IMG/VR virus record: IMGVR_UViG_3300028599_000010
Coordinates: 1-40,941 of that record
From: a virus
Taxonomy: Duplodnaviria; Caudoviricetes
Length of the DNA: 40,941 nt
Direction: 5' to 3' (one strand)
The notes under the pieces are model-generated. The model ran no database searches, was not told where the DNA came from, and worked only from the letters and a program-made list of their open reading frames with translations. The position numbers and the translations under genes were made by a program. Shown piece by piece: positions 1-40,694 of the stretch (position 1 is the stretch's first letter; every line of letters begins with the position of its first letter).

Positions 1-124
1 TTCCGCGCCATTTTTATGTCAGCAGAAATAATCTGTCCGACTTCACGCCGGTCAATATATTTCTTAGTATCATCGTCATGTGGAATTAATGACTTATTGG
101 GCAGGACTCTAAAGAATGCTTTCA
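1..124. repeat. 124-bp direct repeat, copy 1 (identical to 40570-40693); terminal overlap indicating a circular or permuted genome
   Basis: Base-by-base identity from ttccgcgcca to aatgctttca; diverges at 125 vs 40694. Confidence 0.97.
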
Positions 125-1482: not shown

Positions 1483-1757
1483 AATCTAACCCTCTTCTTT
1501 TTAATCTCTTTATTTTTATCTCTCAACCATGCTTTACCATTAGCAGTCAAAAAATAAACCGTCGGCACTCGTCCGCCAGCTCCCTCCGTTGGGAATTTTT
1601 TAGAATTAATTAACTTAGCCTTCATGTTCTCCGCGATAAGCTTGTTAAGCTCAACCATCTTTATTCTGAGCTGACTCAAGCCTCTACGGGTTAAGTCCCC
1701 CTTTTTTATCGGCGCGTGATTTTTCATCATTCTTATAAAGCGATATTTTAAACTCAT
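1479..1757 (-). CDS. winged-helix-like DNA-binding protein (start revised to MSLKYRF)
   Basis: GAGG RBS before ATG 1757; basic; VYFLTANGK wing motif resembling PadR/MarR-type wHTH. Confidence 0.6.
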   Translation of the reverse strand: MSLKYRFIRMMKNHAPIKKGDLTRRGLSQLRIKMVELNKLIAENMKAKLINSKKFPTEGAGGRVPTVYFLTANGKAWLRDKNKEIKKKRVRL

Positions 1758-1770
1758 TTTTAATTGCCTC

Positions 1771-1823
1771 TTGATTCTGCTGTTTGTTTGCACTATCATA
1801 TACCAAAAGCAAACGATAAACAA
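1771..1823. promoter_or_regulatory. overlapping divergent sigma70 promoters
   Basis: + strand TTGATT-N17-TATCAT (1771-1799); - strand TTGTTT-N17-TATGAT (1823-1795); imperfect inverted repeat tgtttgtttg/caaaagcaaac as a candidate operator. Confidence 0.65.
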
Positions 1824-1841
1824 GAAAAGGAAGGCGAATAA

Positions 1842-2075
1842 ATGAGTAACTTGAAGCAATTTAGGAAAGATGCCGGATTAACTTTGCAGGAGCTTAGTGA
1901 TATGTGCGGAAAATCAAAAGCGCACACATGGGAGCTTGAAAAAGAAACCGCAAACCCAACTTTAAAGACTGCTTATGCAATTGCTAAGATTTTAAATAAA
2001 ACTGTTTATGAATTATGGCCGGACACCACAGAAATTATAGAAGAAACAGTAATCATAAGAAGAGTTAAGAAATAA
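1842..2075 (+). CDS. XRE/Cro-family HTH regulator
   Basis: LKQFRKDAGLTLQELS...WELEKETANPTL HTH_3 pattern. Confidence 0.92.
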   Translation: MSNLKQFRKDAGLTLQELSDMCGKSKAHTWELEKETANPTLKTAYAIAKILNKTVYELWPDTTEIIEETVIIRRVKK

Positions 2076-6297: not shown

Positions 6298-6540
6298 ATG
6301 AAAACCTGCAAAAAATGTAAGGTAGAAATGCCCCCTATCCGTGGTTATACAGGGTATGCAAAGGAAGGATATTGTATGTCCTGTTTGAAGGTCCACAACA
6401 AGGAGAAGCGGGACGCACCAGAACGTAAATGTAAAGGAAAATGTGGGCAGGTTAAAAAAGCAGAAGAGTTTCATTGGAAGTATAAAGATTATTCCAGGCA
6501 GGCTATTTGTATTCTGTGTAAAAGAGAAGCGAGGAAATAA
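6298..6540 (+). CDS. Cys-rich zinc-finger-like protein
   Basis: CKKC, CMSC, CKGKC, CILC; basic. Confidence 0.65.
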   Translation: MKTCKKCKVEMPPIRGYTGYAKEGYCMSCLKVHNKEKRDAPERKCKGKCGQVKKAEEFHWKYKDYSRQAICILCKREARK

Positions 6541-6572
6541 AAAAGCCGGTACAGACTGGAGGCCATACCGGC
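6536..6572 (-). terminator. intrinsic terminator downstream of the tRNA
   Basis: GCCGGTA/TACCGGC stem followed by a T-tract on the - strand. Confidence 0.7.
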
Positions 6573-6591
6573 AAGGTCCAACTATAGGAGT

Positions 6592-6668
6592 TGGAAGCAA
6601 TCGGTGAGAATCGAACTCACATTGTCAGGTTATGAGCCTGAGCTGGGGCCACTCCAGTCCACGTTGCT
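6592..6668 (-). tRNA. tRNA-Met(CAT)-like, encoded CCA, atypical D-arm and bulged acceptor stem
   Basis: Anticodon arm TCAGG-CTCATAA-CCTGA; T-arm GTGAG-TTCGATT-CTCAC; acceptor AGCAACG/CG(A)TTGCT-T-CCA. Confidence 0.88.
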
Positions 6669-6695
6669 GAATACAAATATAGCATAGAGAACGCA

Positions 6696-6800
6696 AATAA
6701 AAAACCCCCAATGAAGGGGGTTGCTATCTTAATTGTTATTGAAAACAATATAGGATAAGATAGATTTATCTAGTGGAAGCTGTGCGAGGCGGACTAGATG
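6696..6800 (-). ncRNA. putative ~100-nt sRNA (two hairpins plus terminator)
   Basis: Upstream promoter; stems ATCTAGT/ACTAGAT and CTATCTTA..ATTGTT/AACAAT..TAAGATAG; AACCCCC/GGGGGTT followed by a T-tract. Confidence 0.7.
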
Positions 6801-6805
6801 GGAAG

Positions 6806-6836
6806 ATTATAACATAATACTTTCTATCAATGTCAA
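6806..6836 (-). promoter_or_regulatory. sigma70 promoter for the sRNA/tRNA
   Basis: TTGACA-N19-TATAAT with extended -10 TG. Confidence 0.7.
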
Positions 6837-6865
6837 TACTTTTTACTCCCTCAATACTTTTTACT
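6833..6865 (+). repeat. 15-bp direct repeat TCAATACTTTTTACT x2 (period 18)
   Basis: Copies at 6833-6847 and 6851-6865; partial AATACTTT at 6816. Confidence 0.85.
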
Positions 6866-6925
6866 AGATCGTGATTATCGCGTGTATTTGTGCGCGCTGA
6901 ATAAATTAAATTTGAGGAGAAGATT

Positions 6926-7210
6926 GTGAGTGACGAAAAAGAGATTCAAGATATTATAGATAAATTTGGTGTTAACCCTAATTCTGTCGGCAATAGGCCG
7001 CGTAGTTTTTGGATTATAGATAAAATTGAAGATGAAGAAGAGTATGGAAATGCTCAAATAGGAGATTTATGCGTAAAAACTCGTGATGGTGCAAGCAATC
7101 CAATAGATCCAGAGGCTTTTAAAATCGGAAATTGTGTCGGCAGCTCAGAAGATGGCTTTGATTGCACATATAGATATTATTATTACAAAGCTTTGGATAA
7201 AGCTGAATGA
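6926..7210 (+). CDS. hypothetical acidic protein
   Basis: GAGGAG RBS before GTG. Confidence 0.75.
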   Translation: MSDEKEIQDIIDKFGVNPNSVGNRPRSFWIIDKIEDEEEYGNAQIGDLCVKTRDGASNPIDPEAFKIGNCVGSSEDGFDCTYRYYYYKALDKAE

Positions 7211-7218
7211 TAGCTTAT

Positions 7219-7541
7219 TTCCAACCTTAAGATTGTAATCCCCGAAAGGGCGTTACGGTCTGCAACTGGTTACGATAATACGAAGCGCATAATAATAAAG
7301 ATGGGGCCAACACCGACCCGACCCAACTCTGTTGTAAGAGCGGTCATAAACAGACATCGAAGCACGTAAGGATTATGGCGTTCTGAGCCAATGGATAAAT
7401 CAGAAGTGAAGCGGTTGGTCTCCGATAAAAGACAGTCTGTGATACATCAGCAACATACTTGTAACCTCCCTGTGGTGGTGAAGTACGGTGGACGGTCTAT
7501 GGTTTAAAGATATATTGAATGGTTGAGGTTAATGGGTGGAA
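7219..7541 (+). ncRNA. putative large structured RNA (family unknown)
   Basis: Intergenic; nested stems with G-U pairs, a GAAA tetraloop and an end-to-end closing stem. Confidence 0.6.
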
Positions 7542-7554
7542 TGCGAGGTGAATT

Positions 7555-7734
7555 ATGCTTGATAGAGAAAAAATAAACATGTTAGTACGTCAATTATGGA
7601 TCGAGTTCAACAAAGGAGAGCTTAGCGATTTTTCTGATGATGCTGATTTAGATTTATGGACAAAAGTTACAGAACATCCAGCTATTCAAGACAGATTAAC
7701 CAAGCAGACTACAGACCAAGGCCGGATAAGTTAA
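7555..7734 (+). CDS. 59-aa hypothetical protein (MLDREKINML...)
   Basis: Hand translation; GAGGTG RBS. Confidence 0.7.
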   Translation: MLDREKINMLVRQLWIEFNKGELSDFSDDADLDLWTKVTEHPAIQDRLTKQTTDQGRIS

Positions 7735-7754
7735 CGCTACTATGGAGAAAAGTT

Positions 7755-7922
7755 ATGAATATTATTGAAGATGCTAAGAAAATTGCTAAATTGATTGCTG
7801 AAACTCAGACTGAGAAAAAAGGCGATCTTTTAATAGAGGTCGCTAATCAATTAGCAAAAAGAACTCAGCATTATACGTCATCTATAATTTATAGAGCTGG
7901 CGAGATTTATAACCAAGAGTAA
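7755..7922 (+). CDS. 55-aa hypothetical protein (start revised to MNIIEDAKK)
   Basis: GGAG RBS. Confidence 0.7.
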   Translation: MNIIEDAKKIAKLIAETQTEKKGDLLIEVANQLAKRTQHYTSSIIYRAGEIYNQE

Positions 7923-7944
7923 CCATAATAAATAGAGGTGAAAT

Positions 7945-8091
7945 ATGAATATAACGTCAACATGGGAATTTAGGTGTTTCTATTTTCCTGATGCTGCATT
8001 AAAGGAATTTAAGGATAGCTTAACTTCTTCTGGGCTGGCTGTTTTTCTGCTTGCCGAATCTCTTAATGAAATCAAAAGAAAGAATAAATAA
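7945..8091 (+). CDS. 48-aa hypothetical protein
   Basis: Hand translation; GAGGTG RBS. Confidence 0.55.
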   Translation: MNITSTWEFRCFYFPDAALKEFKDSLTSSGLAVFLLAESLNEIKRKNK

Positions 8092-8121: not shown

Positions 8122-8208
8122 AGATTAAATAAAAAACAAGCTTTACTTTCTAAAAGATTGTGCTATCATGAGTAATAGTTAATGAGGTTAGGAGGAGATG
8201 AAATGAAA
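8122..8208 (+). promoter_or_regulatory. repeated promoter module, copy 1
   Basis: A-rich UP element, TTTACT-N16-TATCAT with TGTG extension; near-identical to 9117-9199 and 12573-12660. Confidence 0.8.
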
Positions 8209-8373: not shown

Positions 8374-8773
8374 AACATTAAAAAAAGAGCCTGAAATACT
8401 TGAAAAGTTTGCAGAAACGAGTAAATCACAACATAAAAGAATATGTATTCAATCTAAATGCGCTGTCCGTGATGAACTACAGGAACAGCTTGAGCAGAAA
8501 AATAAACAATTAGACAGGCAGGAAGCTGCAATATTTCGCTTAAAAGAGCATGACAGCTACCAGCGAGCAAGAATTAACAGGCTGGAGCAAAAGATTGAGA
8601 AAGGTAATAAATTAAAAGCCAGAAACGAGAAGTTGATAAATTTATCTAGCGATCTTGTCAGGTCTATCAACTGTGCCTTTAAAATCAATGAGCCTTATGG
8701 TCAAGAATGGCAATCAGTAGATGATGATGCCAACCTGTTAAATGAAGCCCTTAAATTAAACGAGGTGAAGTGA
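8363..8773 (+). CDS. mosaic coiled-coil protein (paralogous blocks with 11509 and 11891 genes)
   Basis: QEQLEQK, RNEKL and LNEVK blocks. Confidence 0.8.
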   Translation: MEPETLKKEPEILEKFAETSKSQHKRICIQSKCAVRDELQEQLEQKNKQLDRQEAAIFRLKEHDSYQRARINRLEQKIEKGNKLKARNEKLINLSSDLVRSINCAFKINEPYGQEWQSVDDDANLLNEALKLNEVK

Positions 8774-8812
8774 TGGCTGAAGCTCAAATTCAAGGCGGTA
8801 TCATGGATTTAT
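8755..8812 (+). repeat. 58-bp perfect direct repeat with 12220-12277
   Basis: attaaacgaggtgaagtgatggctgaagctcaaattcaaggcggtatcatggatttat. Confidence 0.95.
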
Positions 8813-9117: not shown

Positions 9118-9199
9118 GAGATTAAATAAAACTATATCTTTACTTTAAGATTGTGCTATCATGAGTAGTAGTTAATGAGGAGAAGATGAAATGAAATTG
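9117..9199 (+). promoter_or_regulatory. repeated promoter module, copy 2 (spacer shortened to 12 nt)
   Basis: Same sequence with a 4-nt spacer deletion; extended -10 retained. Confidence 0.75.
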
Positions 9200-11904: not shown

Positions 11905-12238
11905 TTGCTGGCCAGAACAGGAAGCGATTGAGAAGTGGTTTGATGAGTATGTTCGAGAGAAATACGGCATACATCATTCAAATCAAAACTTAATGGAATT
12001 AAAAAAGGCTGTGACTAAGCCACGTCTTGACCTGCAGGAACAGCTTGAGCAGAAAGATAAAGAGATTGAGCTATCAGAGCAATTTATAGAAGGTTTATCC
12101 GGTGCAGCTTCAAGACTGAAAACCAGAAACGAGAAGCTTGAGCAAGCAATTCAAAAAGCTATAGATGATGATGATTCATGGGGTGCTGATGTAACTATGC
12201 AGCTTATGTTAGATGATGTATTAAACGAGGTGAAGTGA
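11891..12238 (+). CDS. mosaic coiled-coil protein
   Basis: QEQLEQKDKEIE, RNEKLE and LNEVK blocks. Confidence 0.8.
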   Translation: MMMSDCWPEQEAIEKWFDEYVREKYGIHHSNQNLMELKKAVTKPRLDLQEQLEQKDKEIELSEQFIEGLSGAASRLKTRNEKLEQAIQKAIDDDDSWGADVTMQLMLDDVLNEVK

Positions 12239-12279
12239 TGGCTGAAGCTCAAATTCAAGGCGGTATCATGGATTTATGA
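12235..12279 (+). pseudogene. 14-codon copy of the VRR-NUC N-terminus (MMAEAQIQGGIMDL*)
   Basis: Lies within the 58-bp repeat; stop overlaps ATG 12276. Confidence 0.8.
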
Positions 12280-12581: not shown

Positions 12582-12660
12582 ATAAAAGTATATCTTTACT
12601 TTATAAAAGATTGTGCTATCATGAGTAATAGTTACTTACTTAGGAGAATAAAATGAAATG
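12573..12660 (+). promoter_or_regulatory. repeated promoter module, copy 3
   Basis: TTTACT(12595)-N16-TATCAT(12617). Confidence 0.8.
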
Positions 12661-13311: not shown

Positions 13312-13340
13312 GTGTATTTGATTGTACAATGTGTTATACT
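13312..13340 (+). promoter_or_regulatory. extended -10 sigma70 promoter
   Basis: GTGTAT-N17-TATACT with TG extension. Confidence 0.6.
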
Positions 13341-13383
13341 GAATAGGAAGGTAATACATTTAATGAGCATTAAATAATTTTAA

Positions 13384-13564
13384 GGGTGGTAACTGGTAAG
13401 CTCTTAAATGAGCACCTCCATTGTTCTACACAAACCTAGTGAATCGGTAAGACTTGGTACTCCGACCGATTAAAAGGGTGACAGCTCGGAGAGACGGCAC
13501 ATAATGGGTATGAAGCTGGAATCGTCCGTGTCAATGTCGTTATCGGCCAGCGGATTGCCCACCA
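13384..13564 (+). ncRNA. cluster of three small structured RNAs; the middle one is C4/CI-antisense-RNA-like
   Basis: Hairpins ending in CCA at 13420 and 13564; GTGACAGCTCGGAGAGACGGCAC motif at 13478-13500. Confidence 0.6.
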
Positions 13565-13659
13565 TATTCAAGAACTCGGGGGATAGTGGTTAATAATAAC
13601 ATGCTCAGCAATAATCGTATTTTACTGCATAAGAGCTTATTTGAGGCCGAAGGTGTGAT

Positions 13660-25163: not shown

Positions 25164-25573
25164 TGCCGTTATACAAATACAGATGCCCAAATGACCACGA
25201 ATTTGAGCGATTCCTAAAACTCGATGATTGGATGGAGAAACAATATTGCGAGTGCGGCAATAAAGGCAAGCGTATTATCGGCACCCCAATGATTCTCTCT
25301 AAAAAGTTTGAGAGCTATGAATCACCGATAGATGGCACCCCTATCACTAGCGCGAAAATGCGAAAGGAAGAAATGGCAAGGCATGATTGCGTAGATTACG
25401 AGCCAACAATGAAAGAAGAGTCCACAAGAATAATGAAAGCAGGAGAAGCCGCCTTAGATAAAGAGGTGGATAAGACTGTTGATAAGTTTTGGGATGGATT
25501 ATCGTCCGACAAAAGAGAAGACTTTGCAAAAGAAGTGTCAACCACAGATATAAATTACTCAAGAGGAAGTTAA
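25163..25573 (+). CDS. FmdB-like zinc-ribbon protein
   Basis: MPLYKYRCPNDHEFE...CECG. Confidence 0.8.
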   Translation: MPLYKYRCPNDHEFERFLKLDDWMEKQYCECGNKGKRIIGTPMILSKKFESYESPIDGTPITSAKMRKEEMARHDCVDYEPTMKEESTRIMKAGEAALDKEVDKTVDKFWDGLSSDKREDFAKEVSTTDINYSRGS

Positions 25574-40277: not shown

Positions 40278-40694
40278 TCAGCTAAAAGAAACTGCCTGAA
40301 GCACGTCATTCTCCGTCAACCCATTACCGAAGCTTTCAAGAAAAACGTCAATAGCGGCACTAAAAAGCGCCTTAAACTCGTCCTCTTCCATCGTCTCGAA
40401 CGAGATTGATCGAGGCTTGAACATCGTTGTCCCGTTGGGAGCGACAACCGTGTCAAAAAATCCGCACTTCATTGTTAGCCAGTAACGGTACGCCTCAAGC
40501 TCTGTAAAATGGTCTTGCATGCCGAACGTCTGAGTTACGAAAACAAAAAAACGCTTATGGTTCTCATAGTTCCGCGCCATTTTTATGTCAGCAGAAATAA
40601 TCTGTCCGACTTCACGCCGGTCAATATATTTCTTAGTATCATCGTCATGTGGAATTAATGACTTATTGGGCAGGACTCTAAAGAATGCTTTCAT
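40278..40694 (-). CDS. DUF1367/NinB-like protein (start revised to MKAFFRV)
   Basis: RNY..HKRFF and PRSISF..M.E.EF motifs; ATGA overlap. Confidence 0.8.
   Translation of the reverse strand: MKAFFRVLPNKSLIPHDDDTKKYIDRREVGQIISADIKMARNYENHKRFFVFVTQTFGMQDHFTELEAYRYWLTMKCGFFDTVVAPNGTTMFKPRSISFETMEEDEFKALFSAAIDVFLESFGNGLTENDVLQAVSFS
40570..40693. repeat. 124-bp direct repeat, copy 2
   Basis: Identical to 1-124. Confidence 0.97.

What the first reader, a model, noticed from the sequence alone, without database searches (positions are those of the whole stretch)
6696..6836. Stand-alone ~100-nt sRNA whose first loop is antisense to a site ~750 bp away
Seen: a consensus promoter, two hairpins and an intrinsic terminator with no ORF. 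Its first loop (5'-CGCCUCGCA-CAGC-UUCCAC-3', from 6791-6773) can pair with 5'-GUGGAA-UGCGAGGUG-3' at 7536-7550, giving 15 bp with one G-U pair and a 4-nt bulge. That target is both the RBS of the 7555 gene and the 3' closing strand of the large structured RNA. Inference: a trans-acting antisense regulator, analogous in logic to P1 C4, P22 sar or ColE1 RNA I, but with no similarity to them that I can see.
Basis: partly seen in the sequence, partly recalled or inferred. Interest (0 to 1): 0.78.

Follow-up and report, generated by a model that had tools for sequence, protein, structure and literature searches.

The report
Phage sRNA paired with divergent leader
An uncultured phage carries a predicted 104-base small-RNA gene whose first hairpin is conserved in a related genome, and its exposed loop likely blocks the ribosome-binding site of a small unknown-function gene at the end of a long neighbouring leader, a probable RNA off-switch that no experiment has yet shown.

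Summary
The small RNA gene is very likely real. It has perfect promoter hexamers (19-nt spacer, extended -10), a predicted start at 6799, two hairpins and a terminator, fold z = -6. A second genome in the same sequencing run shares the promoter and keeps hairpin 1 with a compensatory change and the loop core CCUCG (30-nt glimpses).

The pairing to 7535-7550 exists and is the best of 76 start regions, but is only moderately above chance: 8 of 472 shuffled loops match that site as well, 37 of 79 match some site in the genome as well, and its genome-wide rank is 1-3 by method.

The 'large RNA closing stem' is not supported (z = 0.16, pair probability about 0). In the relative, the promoter region appears to run straight into leader-like sequence, so sRNA and leader look like one divergent module into which gene 6926 was likely inserted.

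Best reading: a loop-initiated antisense repressor of gene 7555, a real but uncharacterised soluble protein family. Covariation of the target and expression could not be tested.

The parts
6806..6836 (-). sRNA promoter: TTGACA (6836-6831), 19-nt spacer, extended -10 TG-n-TATAAT (6814-6806)
   Evidence: 6810-6845 is identical in a second genome of run X1 (record 3)
6696..6799 (-). Predicted 104-nt sRNA; start inferred 7 nt below the -10, exactly at the first base of hairpin 1
6768..6799 (-). Hairpin 1: 7-bp stem, 18-nt C-rich loop (6792-6775)
   Evidence: stem kept with one compensatory pair in the relative (loose end at 6796)
6785..6789 (-). Conserved loop core CCUCG: anti-Shine-Dalgarno seed containing a YUNR (U-turn) motif
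   Evidence: unpaired probability about 1 for nt 12-19; kept in relative; YUNR role from PMC4152353 passage
6724..6763 (-). Hairpin 2, AU-rich, with internal loop
   Evidence: no strong target found for it
6696..6722 (-). Intrinsic terminator and U-tract
6830..6858 (+). Candidate weak rightward promoter overlapping the sRNA -35 (ATGTCA, 17 nt, AATACT; 8 of 12 consensus), start near 6866
   Evidence: inference from sequence and from where the relative's similarity ends (6871); below the scan threshold
6833..6865 (+). Perfect 15-bp direct repeat, period 18 (6833-6847, 6851-6865), possible protein-binding site
   Evidence: no other close copy in the window
6866..7240 (+). Cassette with gene 6926-7210 (94 aa, mobile phage cargo) flanked by an 8-of-11 direct repeat (6866-6876, 7230-7240); likely inserted into the 5' end of the leader
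   Evidence: (homologues in unrelated contexts); insertion is inferred
7211..7554 (+). 344-nt ORF-poor leader before gene 7555; one firm hairpin (7230-7261), overall fold not significant
7535..7555 (+). Predicted target: Shine-Dalgarno region up to the A of the start codon
7555..7734 (+). 59-aa acidic, non-hydrophobic, predicted three-helix protein of a small unnamed family
6592..6668 (-). tRNA with CAU anticodon and encoded CCA; separate unit with its own extended -10 (6681-6676) and terminator (6572-6545)
   Evidence: missed by ARAGORN

Best explanation
The locus is a predicted 104-nt phage sRNA that likely represses translation of gene 7555 by pairing its first loop with that gene's ribosome-binding site. 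Shown in sequence: promoter boxes, fold, terminator, a 16-20-bp bulged complement to 7535-7555, and a related genome that keeps the stem and the CCUCG core. Inferred: the sRNA and the long leader are one divergent module driven by overlapping promoters at 6806-6858, with gene 6926 inserted later. The U-turn core CUCG would kiss CGAGG in the Shine-Dalgarno; pairing would then extend to the UUCCAC half across the 4-nt bulge and open the stem towards the start codon, blocking 30S entry and possibly triggering decay. The strong sRNA promoter against a weak rightward promoter would keep the small protein off until rightward transcription outruns the sRNA. The flanks of the loop would set specificity, so related phages would carry non-cross-reacting pairs.
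For: Fold z -6.0. Best promoter of the window. Relative in run X1: same promoter, 7-bp stem with an A-U to G-C double change, CCUCG at the same loop position. The relative's sequence right of 6871 matches window 7263-7281 in 17 of 19 columns; a 14-mer of it matches 7268-7281 with one mismatch (my estimate p about 0.001 for landing in the 344-nt leader, about 0.2 for anywhere). 7555 ranks first of 76 start regions, -17.5 against -12.9 kcal/mol, and first of the 75 non-overlapping ones by cofolding, -11.7 against -10.2. 8 of 472 shuffled loops reach -17.5 at this site. It ranks first among trans sites genome-wide with local accessibility. TGCGAGG occurs only at the sRNA gene and the target on the plus strand. 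Gene 7555 is a real family (18 other proteins; 28 with the profile).
Against: Genome-wide the energy is ordinary: 37 of 79 shuffled loops find a site as good, 7 of 79 at a start region, and in 5 of 79 the best site is a start region within 1 kb. Rank falls to 2-3 without accessibility or with a coarser grid and to 3 with 350-nt context (-12.6). One of 203 genome tiles cofolds better and one ties. The relative has lost the UUCC half and changed the flanking bases, so the extended duplex survives only if its unseen target changed too. The same 14-mer also matches 25272-25285, inside a coding region. The one lineage of 7555 homologues with upstream DNA (L032, L033) has no leader and no visible sRNA. 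The 7555 start region is not among the 10 most closed of 76. All conservation rests on one relative seen through two 30-nt loose ends from a run that may be the window's source.
Confidence: 0.5

Rival explanations
1. A multi-target anti-Shine-Dalgarno sRNA: only the short core matters, and it dampens several phage early genes or host mRNAs that carry CGAGG(UG); the longer match at 7555 is incidental or one target among several.
For: Only CCUCG (plus the bulge bases) is kept in the relative. CGAGG lies in 4 of 76 listed start regions (7555, 8770, 15716, 31636) and before the duplicate at 12234. C-rich loops that bind ribosome-binding sites are known (RsaE, RNAIII, FsrA; PMC4152353 passages). 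Unchecked AI notes describe such multi-target phage RNAs.
Against: The other sites give only 6-7 bp (-9.8 to -12.6 hybrid energy against -19.0). C before GAGGTG is not clearly enriched (3 of 8). The phage's repeated start tags (D7, D11/12/19) are not complementary to the loop. The host is unknown, so host targets were not testable.
Confidence: 0.2
2. The RNA is real but works without this pairing, for example as a protein-binding or chaperone-sponge RNA, or as a by-product of a strong promoter insulated from the tRNA gene; the match to 7535-7550 is chance in a G/U-rich stretch.
For: Chance levels of 2-47% depending on the null. Loop bases A19 and G20, which the duplex leaves bulged, are kept in the relative. 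VpdS acts partly by competing for Hfq (PMC12197685 passage).
Against: The conserved core is exactly the anti-Shine-Dalgarno part. The best start-region target is the gene at the end of the leader that appears linked to the sRNA in the relative.
Confidence: 0.15
3. The sRNA binds the same site but switches the leader's fold rather than blocking ribosomes: freeing 7445-7468 lets alternative helices form (for example 7268-7275 with 7459-7466), changing processing or read-through into 7555-8091.
For: The target strand is predicted to be paired with 7445-7468, and several mutually exclusive helices exist in the leader. Cofolding displaces that helix with about -11 kcal/mol net.
Against: The leader's fold is not significant. 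No terminator is predicted in it on the plus strand. The duplex covers the Shine-Dalgarno directly.
Confidence: 0.08
4. It acts in cis: it pairs perfectly with, or collides with, the plus-strand early transcript that reads through 6540-6926, lowering expression of downstream genes.
For: No plus-strand terminator is predicted between gene 6298-6540 and 6866. The perfect cis duplex is by far the strongest.
Against: The overlapped stretch holds no gene or ribosome-binding site. A cis antisense RNA needs no conserved loop core, yet the relative keeps it.
Confidence: 0.07

Closest known systems
tisB/IstR-1 (divergently encoded type I toxin-antitoxin pair; PMC4147584 passages)
   Same: sRNA encoded divergently from an mRNA with a long 5' leader and a small ORF; about 20 nt of complementarity in trans.
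   Different: IstR-1 has 21 nt of complementarity to a ribosome standby site far from the start, and TisB is a 29-aa hydrophobic peptide. Here the match is bulged, covers the Shine-Dalgarno itself, the protein is acidic and soluble, toxicity is untested, and a gene lies between the two.
C4 antisense RNA of phage P1 immI (PMC8198154 passages)
   Same: Phage antisense RNA that keeps small early genes (icd, ant) off. Two-part pairing and P1/P7 specificity are recalled, not read.
   Different: c4 lies in the same operon as icd and ant; here the RNA is on the opposite strand with its own promoter. No Rfam C4-type hit; no antirepressor recognised.
P22 sar and lambda OOP (PMC12197685 passages)
   Same: Short phage antisense RNAs with their own promoter; sar blocks translation initiation of ant.
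   Different: OOP is cis-encoded; sar overlaps its target by my recall, although the review's table lists it as trans. Here the target is 750 bp away and imperfect. No sequence family match.
C-rich-loop sRNAs RsaE, RNAIII, FsrA (PMC4152353 passages)
   Same: Unpaired C-rich loop aimed at Shine-Dalgarno sequences.
   Different: Those are chromosomal, multi-target, with a UCCC motif. This one is phage-borne with a CCUCG core and one standout cognate site.
ColE1 RNA I (recalled; Rfam RF00106)
   Same: About 105 nt, three stem-loops ending in a terminator, loop-initiated pairing.
   Different: RNA I is cis-encoded against a replication primer. The Rfam score here is 15.2 bits against a cut-off of 47 and covers the terminator side only.

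Membership tests
Any Rfam sRNA family (C4, sar, RNAI, IstR and others) | Covariance-model score above the gathering threshold | tested here: not met
   Only tRNA passes in the window; best others E 0.9-8, far below cut-off
Divergent type I toxin-antitoxin (tisB/IstR-1 kind) | sRNA divergent from an mRNA with a long 5' leader | tested here: inconclusive
   Layout fits, but the rightward promoter is weak (8 of 12) and the link rests on one 30-nt loose end
Divergent type I toxin-antitoxin (tisB/IstR-1 kind) | About 20 nt of continuous complementarity to the leader | tested here: not met
   9+7 bp split by a 4-nt bulge, plus 4 bp after a mismatch
Divergent type I toxin-antitoxin (tisB/IstR-1 kind) | Small hydrophobic membrane toxin | tested here: not met
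   GRAVY -0.74, pI 4.7, best 19-residue hydropathy -0.06
Divergent type I toxin-antitoxin (tisB/IstR-1 kind) | Protein is toxic and neutralised by the RNA | not testable with these tools
   Needs expression in a laboratory strain
P1 C4 / P4 CI immunity RNAs | Encoded in the same operon and strand as its targets | tested here: not met
   sRNA on the minus strand with own promoter and terminator; target on the plus strand
P1 C4 / P4 CI immunity RNAs | Controls an antirepressor or Icd/Kil-type gene | tested here: inconclusive
   7555 has no PHROG or Pfam hit; fold searches gave nothing clear
Cis-encoded antisense (ColE1 RNA I, OOP) | Overlaps its functional target with perfect complementarity | tested here: not met
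   The opposite strand at 6696-6799 has no gene or start site
Loop-initiated (kissing) antisense RNA, as a mechanism | Exposed YUNR motif at the pairing seed | tested here: met
   CUCG at nt 12-15, unpaired, kept in the relative; a 4-nt degenerate motif, weak on its own
Loop-initiated (kissing) antisense RNA, as a mechanism | Loop and target covary across relatives | not testable with these tools
   The relative's target region could not be retrieved; no other homologue found
Loop-initiated (kissing) antisense RNA, as a mechanism | RNA is expressed | not testable with these tools
   Only DNA contig runs were available

The most novel reading that the evidence does not exclude
A mobile phage module of a new type I toxin-antitoxin-like or immunity kind: overlapping divergent promoters drive an sRNA and a long leader ending in a soluble acidic effector. 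The sRNA loop keeps an invariant anti-Shine-Dalgarno U-turn core while its flanks are rewritten together with the target, so that co-occurring phages hold orthogonal RNA locks on a host-acting gene.
Probability: 0.15. Interest if true: 0.72.

Novelty: new variant of a known kind. Interest (0 to 1): 0.46.

Why it matters
Few trans-acting phage sRNAs with a cognate phage target have been characterised, and this one matches no Rfam family. If true, it marks an unnamed small-protein family as needing tight control (a lead for a host-acting phage protein) and gives a compact, possibly reprogrammable antisense pair. It also fits a pattern that unchecked notes of this scan report in other phages: loops aimed at the phage's own ribosome-binding sites. 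The mechanism itself is an established one, which caps the interest.

Tried and rejected
Homologue searches that found no sRNA or leader relative: blastn against phages and plasmids (only short tRNA, promoter or terminator matches); exact loop 18-mer in viral contigs (1 hit, coding, chance); target 17-mer (6 hits, all without further similarity); promoter-plus-stem pattern (9 hits, none with the loop core, -35 or terminator); loop-core motif in 52 loci and 5 records (control level). Neighbour proteins as bait: 6926 homologues (10 loci; flanks of 8 printed, output partly cut; no DNA similarity to the RNAs); 9191 homologues (4 records); 7755 protein in metagenomes (the window's own record L030 and one weak hit); 7555 family. 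No 7555 homologue was listed on a 1037-nt contig, the length of the relative's record; those searches are lossy. No RNA holder listed. Run X2's 36-nt promoter match and X1 record 1's terminator match have unrelated flanks and were not used. Fold searches for 7555: best Z 4.6, best E 2.1, uninformative; ESM Atlas blank. Ideas for the leader recalled from memory (HEARO/omega RNA, group I intron, T-box, tmRNA, solitary CRISPR repeat) had no Rfam support and were dropped. Homology between leader 7211 and leader 13345 was rejected (130 of 300 shuffles score as well). No earlier notes on this genome or look-alike sequences. My interaction scan is a home-made accessibility-corrected duplex search, not IntaRNA; gene starts were my own list of 75-76.

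Full report
Setting. The window is a 40.9-kb virus record with terminase, portal, Erf-like and exonuclease genes. Its capsid protein is 36% identical to that of Myxococcus phage Mx8 and 65% to an uncultured spring phage. The best-holding run is a marine sediment metagenome that may be its source. The host is unknown. The finding lies inside the plus-strand early region, between a minus-strand tRNA gene and gene 6926.

The sRNA gene. On the minus strand TTGACA (6836-6831) and TG-n-TATAAT (6814-6806) are 19 nt apart. Of 16 extended -10 sites in the window, only this one has a 6/6 -35 box. A start 7 nt below the -10 falls on 6799, the first base of hairpin 1. The 105-nt stretch folds into hairpin 1, hairpin 2 and a terminator at z -6.0, with 0 of 200 shuffles as stable, and is the lowest-z 100-nt window of the first 17.4 kb. 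The tRNA below it (CAU anticodon, CCA encoded, 6668-6592) has its own extended -10 placed to start at its first base and its own terminator, so the terminator at 6722-6703 does not cut a tRNA leader. No Rfam family matches the sRNA.

A relative. Laying contigs on 6540-6960 gave 6 records, 5 from X1 and 1 from X2. Besides the window's own (depth 13.9), X1 holds record 2 (6796-6839, depth 4.26, 2 differences), record 5 (6816-6871, depth 4.36, 5 differences) and a 36-nt identical piece (6810-6845) at depth 18.8, about the sum. I infer one second genome that shares the promoter region. Its loose end beyond 6796, read by eye on the minus strand, continues hairpin 1: a 7-bp stem with pair 5 changed from A-U to G-C, a 17-nt loop, CCUCG at nt 11-15, and A17, A19, G20, U22, U23 kept. 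C9, G10, C16, C18, C21 and the CC of UUCC differ. The first four stem bases come from the aligned part, where the positions of the 2 differences are not given. This is good evidence that the hairpin is a selected RNA structure. It is one relative, from a run that may be the window's source.

The relative's other loose end, right of 6871, matches window 7263-7281 in 17 of 19 columns. A 14-mer from it has two one-mismatch matches in the window, 7268 and 25272, against 0.00 expected in 100 shuffles; only the first extends upstream. My estimate for a 30-nt piece is about 0.2 for a match anywhere and about 0.001 inside the 344-nt leader. Window 6866-6876 and 7230-7240 are an 8-of-11 direct repeat around gene 6926, whose homologues sit in unrelated contexts in other phages. 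By eye the relative could keep 7 of 9 pairs of helix 7232-7240/7268-7276, but its 5' strand is partly inferred. The simplest reading is that sRNA and leader form a divergent module and that gene 6926 was inserted at the leader's 5' end. A weak rightward promoter (ATGTCA, 17 nt, AATACT) overlapping the sRNA's -35 would start near 6866. This is inference; plus-strand read-through from upstream is also possible.

The pairing. Its rank among trans sites depends on method: 2nd or 3rd by hybrid energy and outside the top 11 with the strict 18-nt loop; 1st with local accessibility, -17.5 against -15.7; 2nd on a coarse grid; 3rd when 30 top sites are re-scored with 350-nt context. Among 76 start regions it is 1st by 4.6 kcal/mol (Gumbel tail 0.002 per region, about 0.14 over all 76) and 1st by 1.5 kcal/mol in cofolding once the overlapping 6926 context is set aside. 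Loop shuffles that keep composition reach -17.5 at this site in 8 of 472, at any start region in 7 of 79, within about 1 kb in 7 of 79 and anywhere in 37 of 79. The match is therefore suggestive, not compelling. What lifts it is that the best start-region target is the gene at the end of the leader tied to the sRNA in the relative, and that the conserved loop core is the part that pairs with the Shine-Dalgarno and holds a YUNR motif, described as a scaffold for the first loop contact in bsrG/SR4 (PMC4152353, passages). What lowers it is that the relative's UUCC half differs, so the long duplex is either lineage-specific by covariation or accidental.

The 'large structured RNA'. 7210-7560 folds no better than shuffles. 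Only the GAAA hairpin 7230-7261 is firm. The target strand is predicted to pair with 7445-7468, which raises its opening cost from 2 to 5-9 kcal/mol with longer context, but the 7555 start is not among the 10 most closed of 76. I treat the region as a long leader of uncertain structure.

The target gene. 7555 encodes 59 aa with 18 other hits in 1.84 billion representatives (2 long repetitive proteins were left out of the alignment) and 28 hits with the profile. It has no Pfam or PHROG family, a three-helix model at pLDDT 72, no clear fold match, and is acidic and not hydrophobic. In the one lineage with upstream DNA (L032, L033) the homologue is a tightly packed early gene without a leader, so the RNA control is not a family-wide trait.

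Comparison. In layout it works like tisB/IstR-1 (PMC4147584, passages) but fails the hydrophobic-toxin and continuous-complement tests. In logic it resembles P1 C4 (PMC8198154, passages) and P22 sar (PMC12197685, passages) but is on the opposite strand and distant from its target. PMC11897509 was seen as a search listing and one reference-list passage only. ColE1 RNA I and P4 CI details are recalled. Searches showed no paper on this RNA; the library lacks most subscription papers and no supplements were read, so ncRNA motif lists in supplements could bear on novelty. Unchecked notes of this scan describe similar anti-RBS phage RNAs; they prompted the multi-target test, which gave only 6-7-bp secondary sites.

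Verdict. Real sRNA gene: about 0.9. Cognate repressor of 7555: about 0.5. New variant of a known kind; interest 0.46.

Noticed in passing
window 6592-6668 (-): Atypical tRNA with CAU anticodon: bulged acceptor stem, U discriminator, encoded CCA, missed by ARAGORN. Its CCA end is predicted to be sequestered in a 7-bp trailer hairpin (6595-6575) before the terminator. Its 3' end shares GCUUCCA with the sRNA loop.
   Followed up: partly
window 13335-13659 (+): A second long ORF-free leader behind an extended -10 promoter, with a convergent extended -10 at 13598; fold z -0.13, no Rfam hit. It holds a 23-nt hairpin motif found exactly in an intergenic gap of an unrelated phage (L036 1501-1523).
   Followed up: partly
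window 7770-7870 (+): Strong multibranch hairpin with G-U pairs inside the 55-aa ORF 7755-7922 (z -4.0, 0 of 200 shuffles); the ORF has one 75% identical homologue.
   Followed up: partly
window 8130-8204, 9123-9197, 12583-12657: Three copies of a 75-nt promoter cassette (TTTACT and TG-c-TATCAT) inside the early operon (family D6).
   Followed up: no
window 10537, 11097, 11383, 11863 and 2064, 2440, 2766: Two families of repeated start-associated tags before early genes (D7 and D11/D12/D19); the sRNA loop 1 is not complementary to them.
   Followed up: partly
window 1751-1850: Strongly folding divergent control region (z -6.7) between the leftward gene ending its start at 1763 and the HTH regulator at 1842.
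   Followed up: no
window 8755-8812 and 12220-12277: Perfect 58-bp duplication covering the start of the endonuclease gene 8770 and a stub before the RusA-like gene (D13).
   Followed up: no
window 1-124 and 40570-40693: 124-bp exact repeat that does not sit at the right end of the contig, possibly an assembly overlap (D5).
   Followed up: no
L032 762-780 and window 6806-6824: A 19-nt exact match covering the promoter spacer and -10, placed before a portal-like gene in a phage that also carries a 7555 homologue; may reflect a similar host promoter type.
   Followed up: partly
whole window: No integrase or replication initiator was recognised among the 73 proteins scanned with PHROGs, so the lifestyle of the phage is open.
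   Followed up: no
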